Below the pieces are notes generated by a model, which was not told where the DNA came from, did not search any database, and was given only the letters and a program-made list of their open reading frames with translations. From a virus (Duplodnaviria > Heunggongvirae > Uroviricota > Caudoviricetes), in IMG/VR virus record IMGVR_UViG_3300037067_014938, positions 17,435 to 81,434 of that record: 64,000 bases of DNA, one strand, 5' to 3'. The position numbers were made by a program, and so were the translations under genes. Numbering within the stretch: position 1 is the first letter of the stretch; the number at the start of each line of letters is the position of its first letter. Below, one piece after another: positions 9,866 to 33,005 of the stretch.

Positions 9866-9932
9866 AGCTTCCTCCTGTACGTTGAATTCCCCGCGACGCT
9901 GGGAGCGGCCAGCAGACAGAGTAAAAGCGTTT

Positions 9933-14096: not shown

Positions 14097-14399
14097 TCAC
14101 TGAAATTGTTCCTCAAAATCTGAAATTAATGGCAATAAATCATTAAATTTTTTCTTATGCACCCGGCATAAGGTCCTTAACGTGCTACATGGCTTGAGAT
14201 TAAAACCAAAAGTTATATCCTCAATTGGAAAAAACCGCCAACCATCCGAATGCTTTGTAAGTATATAACCATTCTCTTCAGTTCTCCAGTACCTAACAAT
14301 CTCCGCTGTTTCCAATAAATAATGTCTTGAATCGCTATCACTTAGTTTGTGGGACTTCCCCTTCGCGTGGGACGGTTGGTGGTACTGTTTTATTGGCAT
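14097..14399 (-). CDS. Hypothetical protein
   Basis: 100-aa ORF. Confidence 0.35.
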   Translation of the reverse strand: MPIKQYHQPSHAKGKSHKLSDSDSRHYLLETAEIVRYWRTEENGYILTKHSDGWRFFPIEDITFGFNLKPCSTLRTLCRVHKKKFNDLLPLISDFEEQFQ

Positions 14400-15918
14400 G
14401 TAGAATAGCCCTTCTAATAAGCATTACTGTTTTCTGTGTAGTTTGTTCCAAATTAGAACTATCCTTTATCTCTCCCCCATATATTATAAAAGAATCCAAT
14501 GGGATATATCGGGAAAACATTCCAAAATATACATCTTTATCAATTAACACATTAATATTATTTCTAGCAAAATAAGCATAAACAGAGTCTTTATTATGCA
14601 TTTGATACAACCGTGCTATATCCGTATTCATTAAACCATCTAAGTTTACAATATGGTGTTTTCCATTGTCCAAATAAGAAAATTCACCGGAATTAAATGC
14701 TCCAATTTTCCAATCAAGTGGGTATTCCTTTTCATCCAAAAGCTTAACTGCCTTAATTTGGTCTAAAGATCTATCAGATGCGTCCCATGAATTAAACGCG
14801 GGATTATAAACATGGTTTGTTTGACCAGTAGGAACCACCCATAATAAAGACAATGTTAACATGCCTATTAATGTTACCATTAATACACGTTTTCCTCTAG
14901 AAGAAAGAGAGGTATACAACAACACTATTATGTAACCAAATATTAAACAATACTGGGCTAAATACCAAGTGGCAAAATGAAATCTTAGCAACACATGAAA
15001 AAATGCATGAATAATTAATCCAATAAGTAACAAAAGCATCACACGATTAAACCTATTAAGGCACATTCCAAGCATGACTAACAAAACTGCAGAGAAACCA
15101 CCCGCATAAAGAATAAAAGAGTTAAAATAATCAAAAGATTCTCCAAACTTCAATATAAACGTCTGGAAACTAATAACCTCTTCCCATCTGATATCGGGAT
15201 AAATAAACGCGGAAGTCTGAAACCACATTCCTCCAGTTAGTTTAAAGAAAATTAGGGTTAGAGGTATGGGTAAAATACATCCGGCTAACCATGTAAGATT
15301 AAGTTTGGACCATCCATTAGCATACGGTTTTTCAACAAAAAAGAGCCAAACAAAAAATGGGATTACTAACAATGCCATGTCTGTTCGGGACAACAGGACT
15401 AAAGCAGTTGTTATTGCTAACCATCCTGCATTTTTTATAGTACCTTCAGAAGTATACTTTATAAACGCAAGGGTGAACAAACCTAATAATCCAATTGTTA
15501 ACCCAGTTTCCATTCCAGATAGCATGATTAAAAACATTGTAGGAATAAAATGAGCTATAAATGAAGCAATAAATCCATATTTCTCATTTTCAAAAATCCG
15601 AGATAAAGTAATTCCCCATATGTAGAAACTACCAATAAATAAAACCATACAAAACAGATATACCTGCAGTAATGTAATTGTTCCACCAGTAAATATTGAC
15701 ATTATCTCAAGTAACCAATACCATAACGGGTGGTATCCAGTTGTAGGAATATTATCTCCTACAGATGGAGAAAAAATAGACCCATTATTGACCATACTTA
15801 TATAGTAGAAGGTATCATCATAAAATATACGTGTAAATTTTTCCCCTGGTATGGTAAATATACCAAAGATTGTCGTAACTAAAACAGTTACAATTAATAA
15901 CTTAAATTTCAGACTCAT
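14338..15918 (-). CDS. Polytopic integral membrane protein, possible GT-C-type glycosyltransferase / polymerase-like
   Basis: 526 aa with at least 10 predicted TM helices and a DD pair in the first loop (RIFYDDTFYY). The functional assignment is speculative. Confidence 0.35.
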   Translation of the reverse strand: MSLKFKLLIVTVLVTTIFGIFTIPGEKFTRIFYDDTFYYISMVNNGSIFSPSVGDNIPTTGYHPLWYWLLEIMSIFTGGTITLLQVYLFCMVLFIGSFYIWGITLSRIFENEKYGFIASFIAHFIPTMFLIMLSGMETGLTIGLLGLFTLAFIKYTSEGTIKNAGWLAITTALVLLSRTDMALLVIPFFVWLFFVEKPYANGWSKLNLTWLAGCILPIPLTLIFFKLTGGMWFQTSAFIYPDIRWEEVISFQTFILKFGESFDYFNSFILYAGGFSAVLLVMLGMCLNRFNRVMLLLLIGLIIHAFFHVLLRFHFATWYLAQYCLIFGYIIVLLYTSLSSRGKRVLMVTLIGMLTLSLLWVVPTGQTNHVYNPAFNSWDASDRSLDQIKAVKLLDEKEYPLDWKIGAFNSGEFSYLDNGKHHIVNLDGLMNTDIARLYQMHNKDSVYAYFARNNINVLIDKDVYFGMFSRYIPLDSFIIYGGEIKDSSNLEQTTQKTVMLIRRAILHANKTVPPTVPREGEVPQTK

Positions 15919-16433
15919 TACTCAACTCCTTTTTCCAAAATAAAAACTAACTTCTTTTGCCGTCCCCATTCCACGGCTTGTTGCATAGTTTGAAAGCAAA
16001 TATCCATATCAAGTCCTTTAATTGCTTTGCCCGTGTCCATACATAATCCTATTCCTAAACCAGGAATATAAACTTTAGAACCAAGGGGTATTAAAGCGGG
16101 GTCAACGGCTACAGAAAATACACCTATATTGTCTACTTGTATATATCCTACAGACATTACAGGATCACCACTTTTAGTTATACTTGAATATGGTTTACCA
16201 ATAGCATAACCTGTAGTAGTTAATTCAATTGCCTGAAAAGACTGAATTTCCACTTGCATGGTTTCAACATTTACTATAGGCCTTGTCATGAATATTATAA
16301 GTAAGCATAAAGTCACTATACTACATAACAAAGCTATGTGAGATATCCAATGCCACGTTGTTTTTGATCTATCATGCATCATTACACCCCATATAAGTTC
16401 CTTCTTCAAATGAGACATAAAAGTGTCCATCAA
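15918..16433 (-). CDS. 3D-domain protein (MltA/YuiC-like peptidoglycan-acting enzyme) with N-terminal TM anchor
   Basis: VAVDPALIPLGSKVYIPGLGIGLCMDTGKAIKGLDMDICF carries the three conserved Asp residues of the 3D domain. Confidence 0.6.
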   Translation of the reverse strand: MMDTFMSHLKKELIWGVMMHDRSKTTWHWISHIALLCSIVTLCLLIIFMTRPIVNVETMQVEIQSFQAIELTTTGYAIGKPYSSITKSGDPVMSVGYIQVDNIGVFSVAVDPALIPLGSKVYIPGLGIGLCMDTGKAIKGLDMDICFQTMQQAVEWGRQKKLVFILEKGVE

Positions 16434-16924
16434 TAGATTTAAATACTTGTGAATGTCTAATTGAAGAATTAGAATAATAAATTAATGAATTTTTTATATT
16501 ATCTATACTACGAGTATTTGTAACTTTTAATAGTGATCTAAAGAAATCAACGCTGTCTACTAGTAAACCTCCCGTTCCCTGCAACTTAGTATTATCCTGA
16601 TTTATGAATAAGATTGTACAAAAAAACTCACCTTTATTGCTTAAATAAAAATTAATATCTTTAATAGTCATTAATTCAAACTGTTCATTATTATTCATTC
16701 ACTTTTTTCCTTTAATAAATTCCAGGTACAATCCCATAAAAGCCAGTCAAGAACTGACATTGCTAATACTTCATGGGGTAAATATTCAAGATCCTGAATT
16801 GCACATTCCAAACAATCTTTCTTAGCTAAGATACAAAATCCGCATGAAAAATAAACGTCATTGTATAATACATTTGTCCATTTTTTAATGGATTCTTTTC
16901 GTGCTTGTTCAAACTTTTTCTTGT

Positions 16925-17245
16925 TCATGGTTTGATCTCCGGTAGGGTATATGGCACCGAACTTGTGCAAGCATCATTCCAAGTCTGAATAACAATACCA
17001 TCCTCACGCAACGTCGGATATGGCCCTTCCCGTTTCACCGCCGGCAGGGTATCGGCCTGTATGAACGTCTTGAAACTATCGACCTGGGCTTCCACGGCCT
17101 TGAGGCGACGGTCGAGGGCGATAATTCTTTTTTCATAGAGTTTGGCTCCGGCACCAACCAAAAGTACAATCAGTACACCCGCTACTACGATAACCGTATC
17201 CGCCCACGCTCGTTTCATGGCCTCCTCCTGTAAACCGTATCGCAC
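16925..17245 (-). CDS. Membrane protein in GC-rich moron (likely start MKRAWADTVIVVAG)
   Basis: TM segment followed by a coiled-coil-like region (RLKAVEAQVDSFK). GC-rich. Confidence 0.4.
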   Translation of the reverse strand: MRYGLQEEAMKRAWADTVIVVAGVLIVLLVGAGAKLYEKRIIALDRRLKAVEAQVDSFKTFIQADTLPAVKREGPYPTLREDGIVIQTWNDACTSSVPYTLPEIKP

Positions 17246-17559
17246 TTTTGGTAATCATCATAAACAGTATCTACCCCTATGGTATCTAACTTGTCGCCCT
17301 CACTCCACAATTCTATCCACAACAGAGTATCTACCACCGTCGTACATTTGACAATGGTATCGACCACGACGGGGAATATCCAGGTCGTGTCATATACTAT
17401 ACTATCAGCCGGGTAAACGCCGCGATCTTGATCGGGTCGCTCATCAGGGTAATGCTTCCAAACCTGCACCGTATCGCACTTGACGAAGTAGTGAGTGGGG
17501 AGCAATTCCCCCGCTCCCAGCGACGCGGCCAGCAGACAGAGTATAATAAGCGTTTTCAT
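17215..17559 (-). CDS. Lipoprotein with internal (C/V)DT(V/I) repeats, GC-rich moron
   Basis: Signal peptide MKTLIILCLLAASLGAG. Repeats CDTVQVW, VDTIVKC, VDTLLW, VDTIGVDTVYDD, CDTVYRR. Confidence 0.5.
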   Translation of the reverse strand: MKTLIILCLLAASLGAGELLPTHYFVKCDTVQVWKHYPDERPDQDRGVYPADSIVYDTTWIFPVVVDTIVKCTTVVDTLLWIELWSEGDKLDTIGVDTVYDDYQKCDTVYRRRP

Positions 17560-17582
17560 GGCTTGGACTCCTTTTTATCAAA

Positions 17583-17654
17583 TGGTCTTGCAGGGAATTG
17601 AACCCTGATTTTCGGGTTGAAAACCCAATATCCTATCCATTAGATGACAAGACC
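17583..17654 (-). tRNA. tRNA-Glu (anticodon UUC)
   Basis: Acceptor GGTCTTG/CAAGACC, D-arm ATCT-AATGGATA-GGAT, anticodon stem TTGGG/CCCGA with loop TTTTCAA, T-arm CAGGG-TTCAATT-CCCTG. Confidence 0.7.
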
Positions 17655-18210
17655 CTGTTTTTGGAATCGCTGGGCCGGTGCCCCATAACTCTCCGGCATC
17701 CTTACGATGGGTACGTTATACGATATTTGCAAATAGCGTCCAAGCGATCCCACTTAGACATCATCTTCTTTTTTATCAAAGTTTGATACGCAAATTAAAT
17801 ATATAAAACCAAATATACATATTAATGAAAAAGAAATAATGAACAAAGTTAATAAGCCAAAAATAATGGCTAAAATCCATAAAATAATAGAAATAGTTAT
17901 TAGCCATTCAAAATAATTATAAACTGAATCGAATATTTTACCCATTTAATCACTCTGGTTCCTTAAATCCGGGTCGTTTATACAATACTTTAAATCCAGC
18001 TGCTTTATATAGATCTATTGTCGTTTTTGCTTTGTCAAAATCTTTTTCTTTCATAGTCAGCCATTCAGCAGCACAAGGACTTCTCATTCCTTCTTTTTTA
18101 CACTCTGGGCATAAGTTGTTCCAAGATACATTCTTCTGCATCTTTTTCTGAATCACAGATGAAGACTTTATAAGAATCACTTGGAAGACAAACAGCAACC
18201 CATTTATCCA

Positions 18211-18483
18211 TTATACACGACCTATGGAGGGGTTGGCCCCTCCAATCTCAAAATTAGGTGCAAAAATTCTTCTATCTGCCACATAAGTCCATTCAGTATC
18301 AGTGCTCTCTCTAACTATTAAAGCCCCAAGTTCTATTAGTCGTAAACAAATCTCTGCTCTTAAAGTTCTAATTTTTTTAGAACCTGCATATAAAGTAAAA
18401 TCATCCGCCTGTCTCCGAATAACCATATTTGTTTTCTGCAAAGAATTTAATAAATTTCTTTCTTCCTTACTTAAGTCTAACAT
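18211..18483 (-). CDS. Small protein with C-terminal GGANPSIGRV motif (member of the minus-strand paralog cluster)
   Basis: Carries the GxxSPS-type motif encoded by the recurring GGTTGGCCCCTCCAAT DNA element. Confidence 0.4.
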   Translation of the reverse strand: MLDLSKEERNLLNSLQKTNMVIRRQADDFTLYAGSKKIRTLRAEICLRLIELGALIVRESTDTEWTYVADRRIFAPNFEIGGANPSIGRV

Positions 18484-18714
18484 TTAGTCCTCCTCATCCC
18501 TGTATCCAAAGCTTTCATCTGTGATAGAATCAAATATTTTATTAAATAATTCCGGATGACCCGCTCTGGTAACTAAACAATTTACAAACATTTCATACCT
18601 GCGTCTGAGTATAGTCATACAATTTGAACTACAGAAGTCATATTCTGAATAACCATCACCGCCACAGCTTGAACAATGAGGGAATTGTTTACCACAAACT
18701 CTACATTTTGGCAC
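18484..18714 (-). CDS. Small zinc-ribbon protein
   Basis: CRVCGK...CSSCGG...CSSNC arrangement. Confidence 0.4.
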   Translation of the reverse strand: MPKCRVCGKQFPHCSSCGGDGYSEYDFCSSNCMTILRRRYEMFVNCLVTRAGHPELFNKIFDSITDESFGYRDEED

Positions 18715-19066
18715 TATAATCTCCTGCCATAATATAAAGCATTAATGTAATCATTGCTAACTGTTTAGTTAATTTCCTATTAAAATATTTTCGGATATTT
18801 ATTATTTTAGGAACCCATGCTATAAAACGAACATGTCGGGGTACATCTAAACCTAAACCAAAATAACAAATTTTTTTACTTTTTCTTTCCATACAAAAGG
18901 CATAACCTTGAGAATAGGTAAATTGTGGATGTTCTGCATACCAGTAAACAACAAAAGAGTACTTATTCTGAAATTCCACAATGGGAAACTCAAACTCCTT
19001 ATCTGCCCAAGTTTTCCACGGACCGGAAAGACGCACTATAACCGAATGCTTAGCCATAAAAACCAC
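18701..19066 (-). CDS. Hypothetical protein
   Basis: 121-aa ORF. Confidence 0.35.
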   Translation of the reverse strand: MVFMAKHSVIVRLSGPWKTWADKEFEFPIVEFQNKYSFVVYWYAEHPQFTYSQGYAFCMERKSKKICYFGLGLDVPRHVRFIAWVPKIINIRKYFNRKLTKQLAMITLMLYIMAGDYSAKM

Positions 19067-19099
19067 AACAGAAATTTTCCAAAAAGGTTCCCAATTTCT

Positions 19100-19387
19100 T
19101 CAATTTTTGTTAAGTAACCTCAAAATAAATGCCACCTGGGTCAACTTTCTCAAAAGAGGTTCCGATGAATCAATATAGCATCGAATAAACTCATCAATTT
19201 TAAAGTCATGATACCAAACAATTCCTTGATTAGACCTTACAATAAGAGAACAATAATCCGTAGTTAATTTCCAACTAAATGAATAGTCCGTTGAATGAGA
19301 TATTTCCTGCGTAATATCAATATTGTCCTTATCAACTATTATTTTCATTGTAGGGACTGGCCCCTCACACACTGTAAAAGGATACAA
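19100..19387 (-). CDS. Small paralog-family protein (C-terminus AFILRLLNKN)
   Basis: Belongs to the tandem small-ORF array. Confidence 0.4.
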   Translation of the reverse strand: MYPFTVCEGPVPTMKIIVDKDNIDITQEISHSTDYSFSWKLTTDYCSLIVRSNQGIVWYHDFKIDEFIRCYIDSSEPLLRKLTQVAFILRLLNKN

Positions 19388-19647
19388 ATCAACACACCTT
19401 TGGAGAATGCATCAAAAGTATTAAAAAAATCCCTCATATCCCGGATATTAAAAAAAGTTTTTCTTATTAATGTTCCTACTCTATAAATAGACAATATTGC
19501 CATATTTGTTTCTGGATAATAGACTATCTTATCCGATGGGGAATAATCTTCAAACGGCCCATCAGTTGGGCGGATGTCAATATACTTATGGGAGGGCTGG
19601 CCCTTCCAATCTTGCCCTTGTGTCGTAACTAGTATTGCAATTCCCAC
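19345..19647 (-). CDS. Small paralog-family protein (WKGQPS motif)
   Basis: Contains QGQDWKGQPSH encoded by the GGGCTGGCCCTTCCAAT element. Confidence 0.4.
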   Translation of the reverse strand: MGIAILVTTQGQDWKGQPSHKYIDIRPTDGPFEDYSPSDKIVYYPETNMAILSIYRVGTLIRKTFFNIRDMRDFFNTFDAFSKGVLICILLQCVRGQSLQ

Positions 19648-19839
19648 TTAACCCCTCCCACTCAGTATACAAAGAAATATTTTAACTAAAATCATATCAA
19701 TAGCCCACCTAGCGTCTTCATGTTTATTTAAATAATCCATATATAATTTGAGATCATACTCATATCTAACCCACGAGGCATTTCCTTCTTTATCGTAAAT
19801 TATTATATCATCATTTTCCACCACTATTTCTATTTGCAT
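19648..19839 (-). CDS. Small paralog-family protein (C-terminus ILVKIFLCILSGRG)
   Basis: N-terminus MQIEIVV and a C-terminal hydrophobic ILxxR-type tail. Confidence 0.4.
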   Translation of the reverse strand: MQIEIVVENDDIIIYDKEGNASWVRYEYDLKLYMDYLNKHEDARWAIDMILVKIFLCILSGRG

Positions 19840-20099
19840 AGTGCCCTCATCAGAATATAGATTATAAACTGATCAAAATAATTATCATGTTTCGCGGAAT
19901 AAAGTAATTCTTTCATTGATTTAGGCCATAATGGTTTAGCTCTTTTAGTATATAAACATACTCTATCTTTTTTTGGATAATATGTCAAATAACAAGGAGT
20001 TCGACCATATCCATATTTTATGAAAGGGCTGACCCTTCCAAAAGAAATCTCATTTTTAATAATATTAATATGGCTATTTTTTGTTTCTATTGTAATCAT
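19830..20099 (-). CDS. Small paralog-family protein (FGRVSPF motif)
   Basis: N-terminus MITIETK. Contains the GRVSPF motif. Confidence 0.4.
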   Translation of the reverse strand: MITIETKNSHINIIKNEISFGRVSPFIKYGYGRTPCYLTYYPKKDRVCLYTKRAKPLWPKSMKELLYSAKHDNYFDQFIIYILMRALCK

Positions 20100-20310
20100 C
20101 TCTATTCGCCAGTATCAATAATAAGGTTCTAAAAATCGAAGCTTTATTGAAGGAACTGACCCTTCCATAAAGTAACCTTATATGCTCTTTATTAATAAAA
20201 GTATAACTTGCATGATATGCAATATCAACCCTTTGATCATGTACTTCTATATTTAAGGAGGGGGACCACCATTGTACAGTTGTTGCTGTTACACTTGTAT
20301 TATTTGTCAT
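20074..20310 (-). CDS. Small paralog-family protein (C-terminus TLLLILANRDD)
   Basis: Contains the C-terminal LLxILAxR motif plus WWSPSL and YGRVSSF motifs. Confidence 0.45.
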   Translation of the reverse strand: MTNNTSVTATTVQWWSPSLNIEVHDQRVDIAYHASYTFINKEHIRLLYGRVSSFNKASIFRTLLLILANRDDYNRNKK

Positions 20311-20552
20311 TCCGTTCTATCCGCTAAAATCTCTAATAAAGTTATAATAACTCCAGCCGAGTTTTTATTTCTGTAATTCAGCCGACTGCGACCATACAAA
20401 TATTCTATATACACATTGTCATGGTTTACGTTTATTATTAATTCCCTGCTGTACCCATAGACACCATAGGTATCGGTATCAGTACCTATGGAGGTACTCA
20501 TTGTTCCAAATGCCGGGCAGCGAGTATTTGTAACAAAGTGTTTATTAACCAT
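20307..20552 (-). CDS. Small paralog-family protein (C-terminus ITLLEILADRTE)
   Basis: C-terminal LLxILAxR motif. Confidence 0.45.
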   Translation of the reverse strand: MVNKHFVTNTRCPAFGTMSTSIGTDTDTYGVYGYSRELIINVNHDNVYIEYLYGRSRLNYRNKNSAGVIITLLEILADRTE

Positions 20553-20683
20553 ACTTTTGGGTATAACTCCTTTGGAAAGGGTGAACCATACAAAAAATGT
20601 ATCCCTCTATCAACAATCTCTATGGAAGGGCCAGTATTAATTCGTAATTGCTGAATTATTCTTTTTCTTCGTAAATTTTTCAA
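20498..20683 (-). CDS. Small paralog-family protein (C-terminus TLLQILAARHLEQ)
   Basis: C-terminal LLxILAxR motif and YGSPFP motif. Confidence 0.45.
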   Translation of the reverse strand: MKNLRRKRIIQQLRINTGPSIEIVDRGIHFLYGSPFPKELYPKVWLINTLLQILAARHLEQ

Positions 20684-20924
20684 TTAACTTCCTGATTTCC
20701 CAAAATCTTATTAGTTTTTATTTTCATGGCACACTTGCATAATTAAAATCTAGCAACAAATGGTGGGGCTGGAGAATATTTCCAGGAGTCCAACCATAAA
20801 CGCCGCATACTTTTGGGAACTTCCTTCACGCAATAAGATAAATCTATTGAACATTGCGTTATGGAATTTATTTCTTTAATAATTAATCTGGCGGAGGAGC
20901 CAGAATCTTTTAATACTAACTTAA

Positions 20925-21332
20925 TCATACTCCTCCAAGATTATTAGTAATAATCGCACAATATATCCCATAAAATGGGTTATCAAACCCTAATGCATAA
21001 TGTTCATGAATCTGAATCATACTGGCCCACCCAATGGACGGGCTGGCCCGTCCAATATCCGTAAAACAAACAAATATGGAATAATTGACATAATATTTCG
21101 TATGCCTACAAAAATGCTTAAAAAACCCTTTTCCTCCACACGTAAACAGAGTATCCTCATAAACACCCGAAATTGCCTTAAAGGTTATTTTTTTGGTCTT
21201 TAACGAATATTGCAAAATATAACCAGTTTTATAACAACTATTCTCCTGATAATACGTCATTTGCTTAAGATCTAAATCAGTTTCTGTATTAATTCTGAAT
21301 ATAATCATTAATTTCTTTTTCCATTTTTTCAA
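20925..21332 (-). CDS. Paralog-family protein with duplicated DIGRASPSIGWAS motif
   Basis: Motif encoded by the doubled GGGCTGGCCCGTCCAAT element. Confidence 0.4.
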   Translation of the reverse strand: MKKWKKKLMIIFRINTETDLDLKQMTYYQENSCYKTGYILQYSLKTKKITFKAISGVYEDTLFTCGGKGFFKHFCRHTKYYVNYSIFVCFTDIGRASPSIGWASMIQIHEHYALGFDNPFYGIYCAIITNNLGGV

Positions 21333-21630
21333 TCACTACTTTTCTACGTCGAGTCATTATTATCAATCTACGTGAATACAGCATATTTCGTAAACTATTT
21401 GATGTATTAATAAATACACGTTTTAATTTCTTAAAAAAATTCATACATTGGGCGGCTGGCTCTTCCATTGGATGGGCCTGCCCACCCATAGCTATCACAA
21501 CACCAATTGGCCAATTTTGTTCCGCACCAAATAAAAAATAGTGAAAGTGGGAACAATTGTTAATAAAACCTACAGTTTTTAGGGTCAAGTGGGAAGAAAA
21601 AAGTATAGACCACGAAGCAATTTTAGCCAA
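21289..21630 (-). CDS. Paralog-family protein (GGQAHPMEEPAAQ motif)
   Basis: Contains the doubled GGCTGGCTCTTCCATTGGATGGGCCTGCCCACCC element. Confidence 0.35.
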   Translation of the reverse strand: MAKIASWSILFSSHLTLKTVGFINNCSHFHYFLFGAEQNWPIGVVIAMGGQAHPMEEPAAQCMNFFKKLKRVFINTSNSLRNMLYSRRLIIMTRRRKVVIEKMEKEINDYIQN

Positions 21631-21940
21631 AGTGGGAGGATCAGAAGGTAAAATGGAGATGACACTACAGGTTGTGGTTTATTGTCACGGTGAGTCATAC
21701 AGATAGTGGTCGTGCGGAGTCGGCTAAGTTGTTGTGGGACAGGAAGTTGGAGGGGCGAAAATGCAAGAAAGCTAACGCTATAGACCAAAGCCTTTGTTAA
21801 ATCATTGTCCTACAATAACATACGCCCCACTGTTCAGATGGTGGACACCTCATTGTACGGAAACTGAACAGTTTGATAATGGTCATTCTCACATAAAGTG
21901 AAGGTTTATATATTTGCTATAACCTGTTGCTATTCAATGA

Positions 21941-21966
21941 CTTATACGGCTCTCACACGCCCAAAA
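21941..21966. repeat. Direct repeat CTTATACGGCTCTCACACGCCCAAAA (copy 1) in a 1.1-kb ORF-free region
   Basis: An exact 26-bp copy is found at 22135..22160. A degenerate third copy (TATTCAATAGGTTATACGAT) lies at 22701..22720. Confidence 0.6.
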
Positions 21967-22134
21967 TAAGCTAAACTCCCATATAACCTTTTAACCTCTC
22001 TTATTATACTCATAATATAGTATATCAGAATAGAATGTGAAGGAGATAGTTATATTTATTTTATTTTTTTATACAGAAAGAAAGTCATTAAAGAAGCAGT
22101 TAATAAATTTATTATAACTTATTATGGTTCAAGC

Positions 22135-22160
22135 ACTTATACGGCTCTCACACGCCCAAA
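22135..22160. repeat. Direct repeat CTTATACGGCTCTCACACGCCCAAAA (copy 2)
   Basis: Identical to 21941..21966, with similar upstream context TATTCAATGA / TTCAAGCA. Confidence 0.6.
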
Positions 22161-22446
22161 AACAGATAAACCAATACGTCATATCCCTATATCACACAAT
22201 GACTTAAATATATAACCAATCAAGCCATAAACCAAAAAAGCAATTCAATTTCCATACTCCTGTTAGTTAGTCCTTCCTTATTAAAAGAGTATAATTTTAT
22301 CTCTTTTATACAGTATAAAAGCGGAATAGTCATATTAATACAGTTAATAAAGGCTAACTAACAATAGTATTCCAATTTACTTCTTTTATTTTGATTGTGG
22401 GTTGGCAAGTCCATAGTCGAGTTAATGACTATTCACTAACATCGGT

Positions 22447-22482
22447 CAAAACCGGATAAAAAAGGTCTTGTTTCCAGGTTGG
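22447..22482. repeat. Left flanking imperfect direct repeat of the GC-rich island (AAAAAAGGTCTTGTTTCC core)
   Basis: Similar to 24190..24225 (CGAAAACAGGACAAAAAAGGTCTTATTTCCGGTTAG). Both are followed by TATATAAG / TAATATAA boxes. Confidence 0.5.
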
Positions 22483-22939
22483 CCGATGCCATATATAAGG
22501 AGAGGATAGTACGATAATCGAATCGGCAAGGTTATATTCTTTTTTATCTTTTTGTTATACATAGACTTAAGCTATAACTAATCCAATGTATAGAGTAATA
22601 AAAGAAGCAAGTTAATATATATTTTACCTATTGTGCCATATAGACTTAAGTATTGATAGTGATAATCATACCTTTCAAGTTAAGAATTTTATTCTTTTGT
22701 TATTCAATAGGTTATACGATTTTTTGATCTTTTTAGTGTATGTCGGATTGAGATTTTGATTTTTCTTAATCCTATGTAGGGCAATGACTTATGGCAATTC
22801 AATCAACTATATGGATTCGATTATCTATGATTAACTTGTTGATTGACAATAGGTTACGAAGGCTTGACATTTCGTTCCGACCTGCCGTTCTTGTTGATGT
22901 CGGCGGGACGGTTCCGCCAAAAGGAAAAACGGCTTATAC

Positions 22940-23065
22940 GCGGGGAGATATTATGACAGCGAAGCAATTGGACGAGATGCTGCGGTTCGAGGAAAATTAC
23001 GAATTTTATATCGACAAGGGTTACATTGTGGGTTACTACGCTGACGACAATATAATCGACTATAT
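22940..23065 (+). CDS. Small peptide (MTAKQLDEMLRFEENYEFYIDKGYIVGYYADDNIIDYIVR) in GC-rich island
   Basis: RBS GGGGAGATATT upstream. Internal-Met start within track ORF 22791..23075. Confidence 0.35.
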
Positions 23066-23231
23066 TGTGAGGTGATAACATGACACTACAAAAGCAACTA
23101 CGGATTAACGCTACAATCCGACTACATGGGCAAAAAGGCTATACAAAAGACTGTATCTATTGTGGCGGTATATGTCCGATTTACGGAAATGTGTCAAAAG
23201 GCTTTTGCTTTTCCTTTTGTGAGCTGTTATA

Positions 23232-23534
23232 ATGTCAAGACATAGACTGAACATAGAACGGAGAAAAGCCTTTTTCGGTCTTTTGGATTATCAGACATAT
23301 ACAAGGTTGAATAAACCGAAAAGACACACCGAAAAGGATAACGATATACGACAAGGCAAAAGGGCCGATTGTATCACGTATCGACCTTATATGACGTACC
23401 GAAAAGGCAAAAAGATAAGATACTTGACAAGGCCGTCCAAAACGGTATTAGACCGTATAGAAGTCGAAAAAAGAGGATTAAACATAGAAGCAAAAGCAAA
23501 AGCCGACAAACAAAAGGCAATTGCGGAGTTTTAA
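23232..23534 (+). CDS. Highly basic small protein in GC-rich island
   Basis: GC about 50%. Arg/Lys-rich 100-aa ORF. Confidence 0.4.
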   Translation: MSRHRLNIERRKAFFGLLDYQTYTRLNKPKRHTEKDNDIRQGKRADCITYRPYMTYRKGKKIRYLTRPSKTVLDRIEVEKRGLNIEAKAKADKQKAIAEF

Positions 23535-23556
23535 CCTTTTTAACAGGAGTAATACC

Positions 23557-24141
23557 ATGCAAAATGAAACGAAAAACACTTATGGACTTGCCAAAGGTCA
23601 AGCGGCTTTCGGCGATATTGTGACCGACGGCAAGGTCATTTGGAAGTCGGAACGGCAAGCGGCTTTTTCGTTCATTGCCGACGCGAAAAGCTTGACGGTT
23701 TACAAGGTTAAACCGGCAGGCGATGTCAAACAAGCCAAGTCATCCGGCCTGATTTTTATGGCCGCAGGCTTAACGGAAGCGGTTTTGCCCTTCCGGGGTA
23801 CGGTCGCCGATACGGTGAAAGCCCTCGAATTGCTCAAGACTGATTCCGTCAAGTCGTATGACATTACCAAAAAAGACGGGAGTTTGAAGACGGCAGTAGT
23901 TCGGACGTTCGACGCGAAATCGGGCGAATTTACGTTTGATATTCGCAACATCGGCAAGGCGATGGCGTTCAGGTGGGCGATCAAAAAAGCCGACCTTATC
24001 GACGGGCTTAACAAGTCAAAAACCGATGACGCATGGACGGTCGAAAGTCTCTCCGCCCGGTACGCTGAAGTCGAACCGAAAGGTGGAGCCGTGACCAAAG
24101 CCGTCAATACGGCAATGGCCGAGGCAATGTCCGAGTTTTAA
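23557..24141 (+). CDS. Hypothetical protein (194 aa) in GC-rich island
   Basis: RBS AGGAG upstream of the MQNETKNTYG start. A GC-rich hairpin terminator follows. Confidence 0.5.
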   Translation: MQNETKNTYGLAKGQAAFGDIVTDGKVIWKSERQAAFSFIADAKSLTVYKVKPAGDVKQAKSSGLIFMAAGLTEAVLPFRGTVADTVKALELLKTDSVKSYDITKKDGSLKTAVVRTFDAKSGEFTFDIRNIGKAMAFRWAIKKADLIDGLNKSKTDDAWTVESLSARYAEVEPKGGAVTKAVNTAMAEAMSEF

Positions 24142-24151
24142 CCGATTTTAG

Positions 24152-24180
24152 GCCGCCAACTAATTCCGGTTGGCGGCCTA
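24152..24180 (+). terminator. Rho-independent terminator hairpin GGCCGCCAAC-TAATTCCG-GTTGGCGGCC
   Basis: Perfect 10-bp GC-rich stem followed by TACCTTTTGG. Confidence 0.6.
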
Positions 24181-24189
24181 CCTTTTGGT

Positions 24190-24225
24190 CGAAAACAGGA
24201 CAAAAAAGGTCTTATTTCCGGTTAG
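24190..24225. repeat. Right flanking imperfect direct repeat of the GC-rich island
   Basis: Matches 22447..22482. A second shared segment is GTGATTATTCACTAA versus ATGACTATTCACTAA. Confidence 0.5.
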
Positions 24226-24646
24226 TTAGTGATTATTCACTAATCTACTAATATAACCATTTTGGTTATAGTAGATTCAAGTGAGTGAATACTAACTAAC
24301 CCTAATCCGGGCCTCGCGTATATAAGAATTGGCGTTTAGAAAGTTTGCCAGGATTTTATGGGAGAATTTTTCTTTTTTTGATACAGAACAGAAGAGATGG
24401 GGTGATTTATGAGCAATGGCAAAGTAATGAGATTTATACTAACCGACCCCGATACAGGGGAAGTTACGTATAATGAGGCTTCTTTTTCCGAAGAAGATGC
24501 ACAAGTGCAATATCGGTACTATGTGGATGAAGTAAAACTTCAGTGTAAACAGCCAATGAGTTACGAGGAATATAAGAAGATGTTACTTGGATGATTACGA
24601 GGGATTTTATGGGAGAATTTTTCTTTTTTCATACAAGGAGTAAAGT

Positions 24647-25039
24647 ATGATAACACGAGAATTTATCAGGCGGAATCGCCATATCCTATTTGTATTTGGT
24701 GACAACGATACAAGAACAGGGTTTGGTGGTATGGCCAAGGATTTTAGAGGGGAAGTTAATGCAATAGGCATTAGAACCAAAAAATATCCCGGAATGGATA
24801 AATCTCATTTTTATACAGATGATGAATTATCAGCAAATCAATCAAAAATCACTAATGATATCAAGAATGTACTTAATTCATCAATAAATTACTCTTATAT
24901 TTATTTGCCATCACTAATAGGTTTAGGTAAAGCAAATATGGCCACTCGTTGTCCCAAAACGCATACATTTTTACGCCAAGAAATGTTGCGTATTGAGGTT
25001 ATATTGAAAAACTCAGGCAAGAAAGTGGTTTGGTTCTAA
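24647..25039 (+). CDS. Hypothetical protein with Rossmann-like FVFGDNDTRTGFGGMA motif (SLOG/LOG-like fold possible)
   Basis: ILFVFGDNDTRTGFGGMAKDFRGEVNAIGIRTKK. Fold assignment is uncertain. Confidence 0.35.
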   Translation: MITREFIRRNRHILFVFGDNDTRTGFGGMAKDFRGEVNAIGIRTKKYPGMDKSHFYTDDELSANQSKITNDIKNVLNSSINYSYIYLPSLIGLGKANMATRCPKTHTFLRQEMLRIEVILKNSGKKVVWF

Positions 25040-25479
25040 CAAGGAGTAAAACATGGGCATTGTGAGAATCGAGATTGAATTTATGCGTTCGGAAGAAAGT
25101 ATAATTGAAACAATCGAACAAGGATCACTTGAAGAATCCGATTGGGGTTATTTGTGCCAAGATTTTCTACATGAATTGAGGACTGAGCCAAAAAATCGGG
25201 AAGCTTTGCTCAAAAAGCATTTCTCCTATGTTCTAAAACATGAAATGTCCACTACTATGGGATATAGCGTCTTGTATTAATATGTCCAGTTTTTTAATTC
25301 TTACATTAATTGGTGTAGTAATAGGTTCATCAATTAAGGCAATAATGAATCTCAATACACCAGTTTTGGTTCCTGTAAAGAAGAATTTTGAGAAAGTTGC
25401 CAAGAAAAAATTGGAGAAAAATCAGGTTATTCAACCTGCTGATATACAAGACGCAATAGAGAACTTCTAATTTGTTGAA

Positions 25480-25791: not shown

Positions 25792-26392
25792 TAGATGTGC
25801 AGAAAAGAAATTCACCAATAAAATAAAAAAGAGGTAACTATGACAAACGAAGCTTGGCTGCAACTCGAAAAGCGGATGTCAAAATTTTCGTGAAAAATTA
25901 CGAAAAGATGGAATTCTTTCCTACGTCTGCTCGGAAGCAAAGATTCTGGGATATAAGGGACTTCGGCATTATTGGAAAACTATGAAGAATCCCGGATATC
26001 ACATGGAGGAGACAGAATGAATCTGATGTCGGGCAAATTCGGGGACAGATTTGGATGGGCGATTATAATTATCACAGTTGCTTATCTAATCTGGCAACTT
26101 TTTTGGAGGCAAATATGACACAACATACAATAAAGGGGAAAGATATGAGACCAAATGGTGCCAGAAATTTGACGGCTGAAGAATCTGTTGAAGGACATTA
26201 CATTAAAGTCGTCAAAAAGATTTGTGAAACTTGTGGGCATGGACAATTCACAATTTCTCCAGAAAATGGAAAATGTCACAGATTTCCAAAGACAGAAGAT
26301 GTTGAAAGAACCCATTTTTGTGGAGAATGGAAAAAACGGCCGCGTTGAACACCATTTCAACGTGCATAATAGTAATAATAAAGGAGCGGGCT

Positions 26393-26587
26393 ATGAAAAT
26401 CAAAATGAAAGTTGCCAAAAAATCCTCTTGGTACACTCCCGTTAAAAAAGCTCCAAGTGGGGTTGACCATTCCATAATAGGGTCGTTACAAGGTCATACC
26501 TACGCCGCTGGCCCTGAAAGTGACCGGGGGAAATATGCTTGCTTTGTGTTTAGCAGGCACAATCGTAAGTTTTTTGAGAGAGTATAA
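26393..26587 (+). CDS. Small basic hypothetical protein
   Basis: RBS AAAGGAG upstream of MKIKMKVAKK. Internal-Met start of track ORF 26318..26587. Confidence 0.35.
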   Translation: MKIKMKVAKKSSWYTPVKKAPSGVDHSIIGSLQGHTYAAGPESDRGKYACFVFSRHNRKFFERV

Positions 26588-26593
26588 AGCAAC

Positions 26594-26767
26594 GCCGTCT
26601 AATTGCCAATAACGGTGCTAATCTGGGGCAAACGCCATCAAGTGTAACACATAGGGAGCGGGAACTGCCTGTCTCAGAGCTGTAGGTTCCTAATTAGACG
26701 GCACTAAAAATTCCGCTCGAAACGGGTGAGGGGAAATAGGAAACAGACCGACTATTCTCCTCACCCA
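26594..26767 (+). ncRNA. Candidate structured noncoding RNA in intergenic region
   Basis: Long-range inverted repeat GCCGTCTAATTG...CTAATTAGACGGC encloses about 80 nt. A hairpin GGTGAGGGGAAAT...TCTCCTCACC follows. No ORF is present. Confidence 0.3.
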
Positions 26768-26786
26768 AAAATAATGGGAAAAAATC

Positions 26787-27158
26787 GTGAAAGGTATCTT
26801 TGACAAGATTTCAAAAGAATGGTTTTTTATATGCTGTATTGTCTTCTTTATTATAGGGTTGACCCAAAGTGATAAAACTTGTTATATTTGCTCTGTTATA
26901 TGCTTCTGTACTGGTATAATTCTTAGGGAAATAAGAAAAAAAGATATTAATGCTTTAATCTCAATACAAACTATAAGTGAAGAATCATTAAAAATTCTCA
27001 AGAAAATGGGTCATGATGGAATTGACCGGGAAATACGACCTAATGATGAGTTAAAAGAACTTGTGGGGAGTATTCGCCGTCAAATGTCCATTGCAAAAGC
27101 TAAAAATACTCCGATAAATCCTCAGCATATTATTGAAAAAATTGATGGAGTAATATAA
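26787..27158 (+). CDS. Membrane protein
   Basis: N-terminal TM segment FFICCIVFFIIGL. Confidence 0.4.
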   Translation: MKGIFDKISKEWFFICCIVFFIIGLTQSDKTCYICSVICFCTGIILREIRKKDINALISIQTISEESLKILKKMGHDGIDREIRPNDELKELVGSIRRQMSIAKAKNTPINPQHIIEKIDGVI

Positions 27159-30018: not shown

Positions 30019-30306
30019 ATGTATTCAACAATTGTTGAAATAAATGATTTGTTACTTATATATTTACTTATGGGGTACTTTAGGTGGTATAATGAAGAAA
30101 AAAGTTTTAATATAGATATAGATTATCTTAAAGCATTTCATGGAGCAACGCCTCCCAAAGCTATAGAAGAAATTTTTGAAGCTTTTGATTGGCTTTTAAA
30201 GGCTGTAAAAATATATCCGTGGCATGAATTCTCAATGGCGGGTCGTGTAGTATTAAAACTTGCCGGAGTGGTGGAATTGGTAGACACCAGGGACTTAGTA
30301 CAATGA
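30019..30306 (+). CDS. Hypothetical protein; shares an exact 42-bp segment with ORF 40154..40618
   Basis: IDIDYLKAFHGATP is encoded by identical DNA at 30112..30153 and 40346..40387. The 3' end overlaps the tRNA-Leu 5' exon. Confidence 0.35.
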   Translation: MYSTIVEINDLLLIYLLMGYFRWYNEEKSFNIDIDYLKAFHGATPPKAIEEIFEAFDWLLKAVKIYPWHEFSMAGRVVLKLAGVVELVDTRDLVQ

Positions 30307-32420: not shown

Positions 32421-32435
32421 GGCCATTTTGGGATT

Positions 32436-32915: not shown

Positions 32916-33005
32916 AAAATTAAAGGGGAAAATGATATGTAGAACATCCGGTGATGGTTATCTATTTTAACCCCCGACCGACCCGTGACTTTCCCCTATA
33001 AAAAT

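What the first reader, a model, noticed from the sequence alone, without database searches (positions are those of the whole stretch)
22447..24340. GC-rich 1.7-kb island flanked by imperfect direct repeats: candidate moron or mobile cassette
The segment from about 22850 to 24140 has about 50% GC against about 30% background. It encodes four small or basic proteins (a 40-aa peptide, a 50-aa CxxC zinc-ribbon protein read by hand at 23080..23232, a 100-aa Arg/Lys-rich protein, and a 194-aa protein), each with its own strong RBS, followed by a GC-rich hairpin terminator. Both flanks carry similar 35-60-bp sequences (AAAAAAGGTCTT(G/A)TTTCC(A/G)G...TTCACTAA...TATATAAG) in the same orientation. Both flanks also share GGGATTTTATGGGAGAATTTTTCTTTTTT copies (24345 and 24603) ahead of the next genes. 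The composition and repeat flanking suggest recent horizontal acquisition into an inter-operon hotspot, possibly by recombination between repeated promoter-like sequences.
Basis: seen in the sequence. Interest (0 to 1): 0.65.

Follow-up and report, generated by a model that had tools for sequence, protein, structure and literature searches.

The report
Old GC-rich phage gene, swapped as alleles
The GC-rich patch is not a freshly inserted mobile cassette but a long-resident two-gene unit of an uncultivated AT-rich phage, sitting in a shuffle-prone control region where one gene is exchanged between related phages as very divergent versions and small neighbouring genes come and go at repeated regulatory sequences.

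Summary
22850-24140 is the most GC-rich 1.3 kb of the window at 45.7% (window 33.6%). Only the 194-aa gene (23557-24141) reaches 51.5%, with GC3 0.61 against about 0.27. The terminator and both repeat families are real.

The 100-aa and 194-aa genes are ORFans found at this locus in all four sampled lineages, with the same GC-richness although synonymous divergence is near saturation (dS 1.4-1.7). So this is not a recent acquisition. The flanking AAAAAAGGTCTT repeats are two copies of a conserved 25-bp palindromic site, not insertion scars.

The locus is nevertheless a recombination hotspot:
- The 40-aa and 50-aa ORFs are absent from 90%-identical relatives and replaced by an unrelated ORF in another.
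- The 61-aa and DUF7831 genes come and go at repeated leader and RBS sequences.
- Between two otherwise 94-100% identical lineages, the 194-aa gene plus its terminator differs by 20-45% (dS 1.38 against 0.09-0.21 in flanks). That indicates cassette-like allele replacement.

Protein functions remain unknown. It resembles morons and T4 PeSL-mediated shuffling. Interest is modest.

The parts
22422..22439 (.). 18-bp palindrome-like site TTAATGACTATTCACTAA. It is a left-flank copy of the TTAGTGA-N4-TCACTAA site.
   Evidence: the pattern TTAGTGATTRTTCACTAA with up to 3 mismatches hits 22422, 24226, 24282 and 26974 (0.38 expected). This copy is not conserved in L001.
22448..22475 (+). Left copy of the palindromic box AAACMGGAY-N7-GTCYTNTTT.
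   Evidence: 89% identical to 24192-24219. It is conserved in L001 at 6911-6935. Its right half overlaps a -35-like TTTCCA (22471-22476) that lies 17 nt upstream of TATAAG (22494-22499). That promoter reading is my inference and was not flagged by the scan.
22540..22952 (+). Highly conserved non-coding leader or control region upstream of the first ORF.
   Evidence: It is 95-100% identical to L001 in blocks 22555-22640 and 22660-22720. It is 94% identical to L016 overall, with 3 differences in the first 215 nt, while synonymous sites of the neighbouring gene differ at pS 0.46-0.64. Indels change the reading frame between lineages, so it is not coding. There is no RNA-fold signal (z=-1.06 on +, -2.03 on -).
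22953..23231 (+). Variable slot holding the 40-aa ORF (22953-23075) and the 50-aa CxxC ORF (23080-23232).
   Evidence: It is absent in L016/L017, where the leader joins directly to the MSRHR start of the 100-aa gene. In L001 it is replaced by an unrelated ORF of about 61 aa. No homologues were found.
23232..23534 (+). 100-aa Arg/Lys-rich ORFan gene.
   Evidence: Only 4 homologue clusters exist, all on contigs of the same phage clade. Identity is 72-93%. dN/dS is 0.07-0.30. GC3 is 0.39 and it uses AGA and ATA codons. The AF2 model is unreliable (pLDDT 53).
23515..23541 (+). Left copy of a 27-nt in-register repeat: the 3' end of the 100-aa gene, encoding ...AIAEF, followed by stop TAA and CC.
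   Evidence: family D8, 22/27 matches to 24122-24148. The same ending GCRAT...GA.TTTTAACC is found on both genes in every lineage.
23557..24141 (+). 194-aa GC-rich ORFan gene, the core of the island.
24122..24148 (+). Right copy of the 27-nt in-register repeat: the 3' end of the 194-aa gene, encoding ...AMSEF, followed by stop TAA and CC.
24149..24180 (+). Intrinsic terminator hairpin.
   Evidence: The stem is kept through compensatory changes in L016 (C:G to T:A) and with different stem sequences in L001 and L003.
24192..24219 (+). Right copy of the palindromic box.
   Evidence: It is present in L001-L005 and L016/L017. In L001, L002 and L003 the 9-N7-9 palindrome pairs fully: exact on both strands in L001 and L002, and with one G-U wobble in L003.
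24220..24301 (.). Long imperfect palindrome containing two further copies of the 18-bp TTAGTGA...TCACTAA site.
   Evidence: (I6, I12, I25). The outer arms are conserved in all lineages. The inner part is deleted in L016 and interrupted in L001.
24351..24378 (+). 28-nt leader, copy 1, ahead of the 61-aa gene.
   Evidence: exact repeat. L001, L003 and L016 each have a single copy, and it precedes a different gene in each.
24409..24594 (+). 61-aa gene bracketed by the two 28-nt leader copies.
   Evidence: Homologues of about 40% identity are in L001, L003 and L018. The gene is absent from L016/L017.
24602..24629 (+). 28-nt leader, copy 2, ahead of the DUF7831 gene.
   Evidence: L001 and L003 have no such copy here: the small gene overlaps the DUF7831 start codon (ATGA).
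24633..25050 (+). DUF7831 gene (24647-25039) bracketed by the repeated RBS ACAAGGAGTAAA (24633-24644 and 25039-25050).
   Evidence: Pfam PF25176, E=1e-33. L016/L017 lack this gene: the leader and RBS join directly to the homologue of window 25053-25280.

Best explanation
The segment is a long-resident, self-contained transcription unit at the head of the rightward gene block of an uncultivated phage of about 117 kb that is AT-rich and rich in tRNA genes. It lies in a shuffle-prone, divergent control region.

Anatomy, left to right:
- palindromic box and promoter-like element;
- about 410 nt of extremely conserved non-coding leader;
- a variable slot for small ORFs;
- a 100-aa basic ORFan gene;
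- a 194-aa GC-rich ORFan gene;
- an intrinsic terminator.
The control region of the next unit follows immediately. It reuses the same palindromic sites and adds a 28-nt leader.

The flanking repeats are therefore paralogous regulatory sites, most simply binding sites for one dimeric regulator that controls both units. This is inferred.

The GC-rich gene is of foreign-type composition. It entered before the sampled lineages diverged. Since then it has been passed between related phages as deeply divergent alleles, by homologous recombination in the conserved sequences on either side. This is shown by mosaic divergence.

Small neighbouring genes are gained and lost at the repeated leader and RBS sequences. 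This is shown by comparison with relatives.

Why the gene stays GC-rich is not settled. Selection for host-type codons that do not depend on the phage's own tRNAs is my preferred reading (inferred).
For: Residence:
- The genes keep the same order and locus in L001 (70-79% nt identity, syntenic over window 14397-24933), in L003-L005 and in L016/L017.
- GC3 of the 194-aa gene is 0.61, 0.61, 0.51 and 0.57 in the four lineages, at dS 0.72-1.73.

Regulatory repeats:
- The box is conserved at both flanks in L001 and at the right flank in all lineages, and occurs nowhere else in the 64 kb.
- The terminator shows covariation.
- The non-coding leader is more conserved than the coding DNA.

Mosaicism, L001 lineage against L003 lineage:
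- Identity is 98% in the 3' part of the 100-aa gene.
- It falls to 40-86%, mostly 56-80%, across the 194-aa gene, the terminator, the box and the palindrome.
- It returns to 94-100% downstream.
- dS is 0.21, 1.38, 0.107 and 0.088 for the 100-aa 3' part, the 194-aa gene, the small gene and DUF7831.

Indels at repeats:
- The 40/50-aa slot differs between lineages.
- The 61-aa gene lies between the 28-nt copies.
- DUF7831 lies between the RBS repeats, and L016 lacks both the 61-aa gene and DUF7831.
- L003 has an extra 94-aa gene after the leader.

Codon usage:
- The 194-aa gene avoids codons read by the window's tRNAs. ACA, GCA, AGA, GTA, ATA, CCA and TCA make up 9/90 of its Thr, Ala, Arg, Val, Ile, Pro and Ser codons, against a median of 0.37. 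This is the second lowest of 90 ORFs.
- Codon-usage differences between early and late phage genes are documented (PMC5683454).
Against: - Only four lineages are known, and all but one of the related contigs were found by searching with the island's own proteins. Relatives that lack the island could not have been found that way. The unbiased DUF7831 scan added just one 1.4-kb contig.
- No promoter is demonstrated. The sigma-70 scan found no more promoter-like sites than in shuffled sequence.
- The box is a weak palindrome in the window's own two copies.
- The 100-aa gene of the same unit is not GC-rich and uses AGA and ATA codons, which weakens a pure expression-timing explanation.
- Polarised synonymous changes run S>W 32 against W>S 17, so GC may be slowly decaying rather than being maintained.
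- No donor and no protein function were identified.
Confidence: 0.6

Rival explanations
1. First reader's model. The whole 22447-24340 segment is a recently acquired moron or mobile cassette, inserted by recombination between the AAAAAAGGTCTT repeats.
For: The composition is atypical. Direct repeats are present on both sides. The unit has its own terminator. A truly variable GC-rich two-ORF insert does exist 6 kb away at 16940-17580 and is absent in L001, so such events do happen in this phage.
Against: The genes, their order, both repeats and the GC-richness are present in lineages separated by dS 1.4-1.7. Part of the segment between the repeats (22540-22952) is the most conserved DNA of the region and is AT-rich (27% GC). 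The exchange boundaries seen between lineages do not coincide with these repeats. No transposase, integrase or homing endonuclease was found.
Confidence: 0.06
2. There was no horizontal transfer. The 194-aa gene is native, and its GC-rich codons are kept by translational selection. It must be made early or in large amounts from host tRNAs, before the phage's own A-ending-codon tRNAs accumulate.
For: GC3 stays at 0.5-0.6 across alleles at dS>1. The W>S to S>W rates imply an equilibrium GC3 of about 0.44, well above the bulk value of 0.27 (my calculation). The gene strongly avoids ACA, AGA, ATA, CCA and GTA, which the window's tRNAs decode. It sits first after the divergent control region. Early and late codon-usage differences are known (PMC5683454).
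Against: GC1, GC2 and amino-acid composition are shifted too (Ala 14%, GARP 26% against 18%). Codon selection does not explain that. The co-transcribed 100-aa gene is not adapted in this way. G-ending and NCG codons are enriched, not only C-ending ones. Other GC-rich patches with the same codon signature are scattered on both strands, and at least one is a recent indel. The host and its tRNA pool are unknown.
Confidence: 0.2
3. Recurrent import. The gene's real home is an unsampled, GC-richer phage or host population, and alleles are repeatedly brought from it into this AT-rich clade. That would explain both the persistent GC-richness and the deep allelic divergence.
For: The alleles are as divergent between near-identical backbones (dS 1.38) as between distant ones (1.45-1.73). 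All alleles are GC-rich. The codon signature is shared with other islands and is moderately similar to a Zixibacteria MAG contig (r=0.45-0.50, against -0.32 with the phage bulk).
Against: No homologue outside this clade was found in 5.8 billion clustered proteins or 1.84 billion representatives. Every contig long enough to judge has AT-rich phage flanks.
Confidence: 0.1
4. Anti-defence locus of the anti-CRISPR/Aca type. Variable small ORFs sit behind a strong early promoter, followed by a conserved autoregulator that binds the palindromic boxes.
For: The slot for small ORFs, directly behind a highly conserved leader, is occupied differently in three lineages. A palindromic site overlaps the -35-like element and recurs at the next unit. 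A basic 100-aa protein is conserved next to the slot. The neighbouring gene has deep allelic diversity, as expected for arms-race genes.
Against: No helix-turn-helix or any other domain was detected in the 100-aa or 194-aa proteins. The AF2 model of the 100-aa protein is unreliable. dN/dS is low (0.07-0.3), with no sign of positive selection. No library of anti-defence proteins was available. The small ORFs have no homologues at all.
Confidence: 0.12
5. Assembly chimera. The GC-rich segment was joined to the phage contig by mis-assembly.
For: None beyond the compositional jump.
Against: The same junctions occur in contigs from at least three JGI samples, one ENA assembly and one Logan run, including diverged versions.
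Confidence: 0.01

Closest known systems
Morons (extra genes with their own promoter and terminator, inserted between genes that are adjacent in related phages; concept from lambdoid phages HK97/HK022, cited from my own knowledge)
   Same: Atypical base composition. A dedicated terminator. A promoter-like element upstream. ORFan content. Location between functional blocks. The 40/50-aa ORFs and the insert at 16940-17580 do show the defining presence/absence pattern.
   Different: The GC-rich 194-aa gene and its 100-aa partner are present in every sampled relative, at saturating synonymous divergence. No empty site is known. They vary by allele replacement, not by presence or absence.
PeSL mobile regulatory cassettes of T4-type phages (PMC2839356; PMC4122927)
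   Same: Short conserved regulatory sequences lie between the stop codon of one gene and the SD and start of the next. They include a stem-loop terminator and are repeated in an ORFan-rich variable region. Gene insertions, deletions and replacements between relatives map to them (61-aa gene, DUF7831, 94-aa gene, 194-aa module).
   Different: - Only 2-3 copies of each repeat occur in 64 kb, against about 50 per T4-like genome.
- No sigma-70 consensus promoter is recognisable.
- The repeats are several distinct pieces (25-bp box, 18-bp palindrome, 28-nt leader, 12-nt RBS), not one composite motif.
- The phage encodes a family A DNA polymerase, so it is not T4-like.
- Mini-circles were not tested.
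Mosaic module exchange at conserved boundary sequences in tailed phages (modular theory; from my own knowledge)
   Same: A sharply bounded segment has much deeper divergence than its flanks (dS 1.38 against about 0.1). The breakpoints lie in conserved sequence at a gene junction and in a control region.
   Different: Nothing essential. This is an ordinary instance. The one added peculiarity is that all alleles keep a GC content 18 points above the genome.
Codon-usage differences between early and late phage genes, and phage tRNAs (PMC5683454)
   Same: A gene placed first after the control region avoids the codons served by phage-encoded tRNAs and uses a distinct codon set.
   Different: Expression timing here is only inferred from position. 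The co-transcribed 100-aa gene does not share the bias. Amino-acid composition is shifted as well.

Membership tests
Moron | Own transcription terminator downstream | tested here: met
   Hairpin at 24149-24180, -27.8 kcal/mol, z=-5.1. It is retained with compensatory changes in L016, L001 and L003.
Moron | Own promoter upstream | tested here: inconclusive
   TTTCCA-17-TATAAG at 22471-22499 is only a by-eye match. The sigma-70 scan found no more promoter-like sites than in shuffled sequence. No transcript data are available.
Moron | Absent from a related phage in which the flanking genes are adjacent | tested here: not met
   The 100-aa and 194-aa genes are present in all four sampled lineages, with the caveat that sampling was biased towards carriers. 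The feature is met only for the 40/50-aa ORFs, which are absent in L016/L017.
Moron | Base composition different from the rest of the genome | tested here: met
   GC is 51.5% and GC3 0.61, against 33.6% and 0.27.
PeSL regulatory cassette (T4-type phages) | Composite of a sigma-70-like early promoter plus a stem-loop, lying between a stop codon and the next SD and start codon | tested here: inconclusive
   The stem-loop, SD and start codon are present. No consensus promoter was found.
PeSL regulatory cassette (T4-type phages) | Many copies per genome, concentrated in hyperplastic regions (about 50 in phi1 and RB49; PMC2839356) | tested here: not met
   In 64 kb there are 2 copies of the box, 2 of the 28-nt leader and 3-4 of the 18-bp palindrome.
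PeSL regulatory cassette (T4-type phages) | Indels and replacements between close relatives are bounded by the repeats | tested here: met
   The 61-aa gene lies between 28-nt copies. DUF7831 lies between RBS repeats. L016 lacks both. L003 has an extra gene after the leader.
PeSL regulatory cassette (T4-type phages) | Host phage belongs to the T4 superfamily | tested here: not met
   The window encodes a family A DNA polymerase (PF00476, E=1e-72). That T4-like phages use a family B enzyme is from my own knowledge.
PeSL regulatory cassette (T4-type phages) | Excised mini-circles formed by recombination between repeats | not testable with these tools
   This needs PCR or read-level data.
Transposable or site-specific mobile element | Encodes a transposase, integrase, recombinase or homing endonuclease | tested here: not met
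   None of the ORFs in 22953-24594 has a significant hit in Pfam, PHROGs, NCBIfam or PADLOC.
Transposable or site-specific mobile element | Occupied and empty sites among relatives, with a target-site duplication | tested here: not met
   No empty site was found. The flanking repeats are conserved palindromic sites in all lineages. The 27-nt in-register repeat around the 194-aa ORF could be an old duplication, but it is also under coding constraint.
Anti-CRISPR/Aca-type anti-defence operon | Conserved helix-turn-helix autoregulator next to variable small genes | tested here: not met
   No HTH or other domain was detected in the 100-aa or 194-aa proteins. The AF2 model of the 100-aa protein has pLDDT 53.
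Anti-CRISPR/Aca-type anti-defence operon | Inverted-repeat operator in the promoter | tested here: inconclusive
   A 9-N7-9 palindrome overlaps the -35-like element. It is perfect in L001 and nearly so in L003, but weak in the window. Binding was not tested.

The most novel reading that the evidence does not exclude
The 194-aa ORFan may be an arms-race gene, for host takeover or anti-defence. On this reading:
- It is kept as several ancient alleles that move between phage backbones as an 800-bp cassette of gene, terminator and operator.
- Its GC-rich codons are actively maintained so that it can be translated from host tRNAs before the phage's own tRNA set is expressed.
- The 27-nt repeat that spans both stop codons marks the original Campbell-type insertion of a mini-circle.
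Probability: 0.12. Interest if true: 0.6.

Novelty: new member of a known kind. Interest (0 to 1): 0.33.

Why it matters
The case shows that a compositional island flanked by repeats can be misread as a recent insertion. Here the comparative data separate three different processes in one 3-kb stretch:
- old residence of a foreign-type gene;
- cassette-like exchange of deeply divergent alleles;
- gain and loss of small genes at repeated regulatory sequences.

The last process is similar to PeSL-mediated shuffling, but it occurs in a phage that is not T4-like.

The unexplained point is how a gene keeps GC3 of 0.5-0.6 in a genome at 0.27 across saturating synonymous divergence. This makes the relative roles of amelioration, codon selection and dependence on phage tRNAs testable, once the host or more genomes are known.

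Tried and rejected
Searches with no informative result:
- Nucleotide and contig searches. blastn of the region against 50,697 phage records found no match. IMG/VR scans with the 194-aa alignment and with the 50-aa ORF found nothing.
- Search for relatives lacking the island. DUF7831 scans of the viral and metagenome collections returned about 65 loci, but only one close relative (L018, 1.4 kb). The rest share only that one gene.

Ideas tested and rejected or left open:
- Structured RNA. Rfam at gathering and at E-value thresholds found only tRNAs and noise. Folding of 22500-22955 and of 21540-21930 gave no signal beyond shuffled sequence.
- A conserved small ORF (LTFRSDLP...) in the leader. 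Rejected, because indels put the conserved nucleotides in different frames in the window, L016 and L001.
- The ATTCAAT-N3-YTATAYG motif as a general phage promoter. Rejected, because it occurs only in this control region.
- Faster mutation of GC-rich DNA as the cause of the high dS. At most about a 1.4-fold effect is expected, against the 7-15-fold observed (my calculation).
- Host inference from the SPFH gene. It points weakly to Zixibacteria or Ignavibacteria (56-61% identity) and is not decisive.
- Integron attC reading of the long palindrome. Rejected by eye, because the core motifs are in the wrong orientation and there is no integrase.
Full report
CONTEXT

The window is 33.6% GC. It encodes a family A DNA polymerase, a class II ribonucleotide reductase, a DnaB-type helicase, RtcB, an SbcCD-like nuclease and 11 tRNAs. 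The 10 elongator tRNAs all have U34 anticodons. It is therefore part of a large tailed phage. The identical 194-aa protein is recorded on a 117-kb contig.

Genes run leftward from about 8 kb to 21.6 kb and rightward from about 22.9 kb to 51 kb. The GC skew switches sign near 22.2-22.4 kb. The finding therefore lies at the start of the rightward block, next to a divergent, largely non-coding region of about 1.3 kb.

CHECKING THE OBSERVATION

Composition.
- 22850-24140 is 45.7% GC, the most GC-rich 1.29-kb stretch of the window (z=3.35).
- Only the 194-aa gene (23557-24141, 51.5%) and the last 100 nt of the leader reach 50%.
- The 40/50-aa segment (39.8%) and the 100-aa gene (38.6%) are intermediate.
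- The 194-aa gene has GC3 0.61 against a mean of 0.27, the highest of about 120 ORFs.
- Four other patches in the window have the same character: 9802-10954, 16798-17816, 26229-26838 and 31774-33139.

ORFs, terminator and repeats.
- The four ORFs exist at the stated coordinates.
- The terminator at 24149-24180 is strong, and its hairpin is retained with different stem sequences in three other lineages.
- AAAAAAGGTCTTRTTTCCRG occurs exactly twice (0.05 expected).
- The 28-nt GGATTTTATGGGAGAATTTTTCTTTTTT occurs twice and exactly. Both copies are to the right of the island and bracket the 61-aa gene.

RELATIVES

The 194-aa and 100-aa proteins have no hit in Pfam, PHROGs, NCBIfam or PADLOC. They have only 5 and 4 homologue clusters among 5.8 billion proteins. 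A profile search of 1.84 billion representatives adds nothing.

The contigs that encode them define four lineages:
- the window and L006 (99.6% identical to each other);
- L016/L017 (about 90%);
- L001/L002/L018;
- L003/L004/L005.

L001 (9.3 kb) is syntenic with window 14397-24933 at 70-79% identity. In every lineage that reaches the locus, the 100-aa gene, the 194-aa gene, the terminator and the downstream control region are present in the same order. The 194-aa gene is about 50% GC in flanks of 28-38% GC.

One caveat applies. All but one of these contigs were found with the island's own proteins. The unbiased DUF7831 scans found only one further close relative, and it is too short to reach the island.

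NOT A RECENT ACQUISITION

- For the 194-aa gene, dS is 1.45 (window-L001), 1.73 (window-L003), 1.38 (L001-L003) and 0.72 (window-L016).
- dN/dS is 0.08-0.20.
- GC3 is 0.61, 0.61, 0.51 and 0.57 in the four lineages.

The gene was therefore in place, and GC-rich, before these lineages separated.

The composition is foreign-like at all codon positions (GC1 0.51, GC2 0.43; Ala 14.4% against 4.8% in bulk genes). Its RSCU is anti-correlated with bulk phage genes (r=-0.32). It correlates with the other GC-rich patches (0.40), and with a Zixibacteria MAG contig that carries the best bacterial homologue of the window's SPFH gene (0.45-0.50).

The gene almost completely avoids the codons decoded by the window's tRNAs: ACA 0/16, AGA 0/6, ATA 0/9, CCA 0/3 and GTA 1/15. 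For the seven codons ACA, GCA, AGA, GTA, ATA, CCA and TCA together, the share is 9/90 against a median of 0.37.

Polarised synonymous changes give S>W 32 and W>S 17. From these I calculate an equilibrium GC3 near 0.44. That is lower than today's value but well above the genome background. GC is therefore either being maintained in part or being replenished. I could not decide between these.

WHAT THE FLANKING REPEATS ARE

The AAAAAAGGTCTT repeat is the centre of a 25-bp palindromic box, AAACMGGAY-N7-GTCYTNTTT.
- The palindrome is perfect in the right-flank copy of L001 and L002, and pairs fully with one G-U wobble in L003. It is weaker in both window copies.
- It is conserved at the left flank in L001 and at the right flank in all lineages. 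It is found nowhere else in the window or in 60-odd unrelated loci.
- On the left, its right half overlaps a -35-like TTTCCA that lies 17 nt from TATAAG. This is my reading and is not supported by the scan.

A second palindromic site, TTAGTGA-N4-TCACTAA, occurs once on the left (22422) and twice, inverted, inside the long palindrome on the right (24226 and 24282).

The flanks are therefore two successive control regions that reuse the same sites. The simplest mechanism is co-regulation by one dimeric DNA-binding factor. That is inference only.

Between the left box and the first ORF lie about 410 nt of non-coding DNA. This stretch is more conserved than any coding sequence nearby:
- 95-100% identical to L001 in blocks;
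- 3 differences in 215 nt against L016.
Indels shift the reading frame between lineages, so it is not coding. It has no RNA-fold signal. It probably acts at the DNA level, as promoters, operators or an origin of replication.

WHERE THE LOCUS REALLY VARIES

1. The 40-aa and 50-aa ORFs (22953-23231) are missing in L016/L017, where the leader joins directly to the ATG of the 100-aa gene. In L001 they are replaced by an unrelated ORF of about 61 aa.

2. To the right of the island:
   - The 28-nt leader precedes a different gene in each lineage: the 61/76-aa family in the window and L001, a 94-aa gene in L003, and the homologue of window 25053-25280 in L016.
   - The window carries a second leader copy inserted before DUF7831, at the point where L001 and L003 have an overlapping ATGA.
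   - DUF7831 is bracketed in the window by the RBS repeat ACAAGGAGTAAA (24633 and 25039).
   - L016/L017 lack both the 61-aa gene and DUF7831.

3. The 194-aa module is mosaic. Between the L001 and L003 lineages:
   - identity is 98% in the 3' part of the 100-aa gene;
   - it is 40-86%, mostly 56-80%, across the 194-aa gene, terminator, box and palindrome (L001 about 7900-8700);
   - it is 94-100% downstream.
   The corresponding dS values are 0.21, 1.38, 0.107 and 0.088. A 7- to 15-fold excess of synonymous divergence cannot come from selection on the protein, nor from the modest mutational effect of GC-richness. It means that the module has a much deeper genealogy than its flanks. In other words, alleles are swapped by homologous recombination in the conserved sequences on either side. 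The window-L016 pair shows the same tendency more weakly.

4. The 194-aa ORF is bracketed by an in-register 27-nt repeat formed by the 3' ends of the two genes (23515-23541 and 24122-24148, 22/27 matches). Both proteins end A-[I/M]-x-[E/D/S]-F, followed by TAA and CC, in every lineage. This could be the scar of an old insertion, or a shared C-terminal motif. I cannot tell which.

FUNCTION

Nothing could be assigned.
- The 100-aa protein is strongly basic, and its model is unreliable.
- An anti-defence operon reading fits the architecture: variable small ORFs behind a conserved promoter, next to a conserved small basic protein, with palindromic operators. It has no direct support.

COMPARISON WITH KNOWN SYSTEMS

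The unit works like a moron in having its own terminator and a deviant composition. It fails the defining presence/absence test. That test is met only by the small-ORF slot, and by a separate GC-rich insert at 16940-17580 that L001 lacks.

The gain, loss and replacement of genes at short repeated regulatory sequences resembles PeSL-mediated modular shuffling in T4-type phages (PMC2839356, PMC4122927). However, copy number is low, no sigma-70 consensus is visible, the repeats are heterogeneous, and the phage is not T4-like.

Codon-usage differences between early and late phage genes are documented (PMC5683454). They offer a possible reason for the maintained GC3.

VERDICT

The 'recent mobile cassette bounded by the AAAAAAGGTCTT repeats' interpretation is not. 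The more general idea, a recombination hotspot with promoter-like repeats, is supported, with different boundaries and different variable parts. This is an ordinary kind of phage mosaicism, well resolved here. One open question remains: why the gene persists as GC-rich.

Noticed in passing
window 16940-17580: A GC-rich insert (GC3 0.52-0.57) with two ORFs (16925-17245 and 17215-17559, minus strand) lies next to tRNA-Glu. It is absent from L001, whose tRNA-Glu copy carries an 11-nt deletion and is no longer recognised by ARAGORN.
   Followed up: partly
window 21546-21637; L001 6191-6283: Three copies of AAGTGGGA on the + strand are spaced 42-43 nt apart. The spacing is the same in L001. A conserved GC-rich non-coding block follows (21640-21920), with frame-breaking indels and no RNA-fold signal. 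The GC-skew switch is at about 22.2-22.4 kb. Together these make a candidate iteron-type replication origin or early control region.
   Followed up: partly
window 21904-21976 and 22099-22171; 21932, 22127, 22702, 22797: There is a 73-nt direct repeat (79% identical). There are also four + strand copies of ATTCAAT-N3-YTATAYG, confined to this control region. The whole 64 kb has 6 matches within one mismatch against 1.5 expected, and the two outside the region look like chance.
   Followed up: partly
window 22555-22795: This non-coding stretch is 98-100% identical between lineages whose neighbouring genes differ at 46-64% of synonymous sites. It is the most constrained DNA in the region, and its function is unknown.
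   Followed up: partly
window 30112-30153 and 40346-40387: An exact 42-nt repeat (ATAGATATAGATTATCTTAAAGCATTTCATGGAGCAACGCCT) lies inside two different ORFs 10 kb apart.
   Followed up: no
window 9802-10954, 26229-26838, 31774-33139: These are further GC-rich patches. The ORFs tested in the 9.9-10.5 kb and 32 kb patches share the ACG/GCC/CCG/GTC codon signature of the 194-aa gene; the 26.2-26.8 kb patch was not tested for this. One patch holds an SPFH/Band 7 lipoprotein gene (31623-32420). Its best bacterial homologues (56-61%) are in Zixibacteria and Ignavibacteria MAGs, which is a weak host clue.
   Followed up: partly
window, the 10 elongator tRNA genes (11484-50414): Every elongator tRNA in the window has a U34 anticodon that reads an A-ending codon (Thr, Gln, Ala, Glu, Arg-AGA, Lys, Val, Ile-ATA, Pro, Ser). 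This matches the codon preference of bulk phage genes and is the opposite of the GC-rich genes.
   Followed up: partly
window 23515-23541 and 24122-24148: The 100-aa and 194-aa proteins share a C-terminal A-[I/M]-x-[E/D/S]-F ending, and the same stop context TTTTAACC, in all lineages. This could be a common docking tail or the trace of an old duplication.
   Followed up: partly
L016 and L017 1489-1535, compared with window 24602-25055: The 90%-identical relatives lack both the 61-aa gene and the DUF7831 gene. The junction lies exactly in the repeated leader and RBS sequence CATACAAGGAGTAAA.
   Followed up: yes
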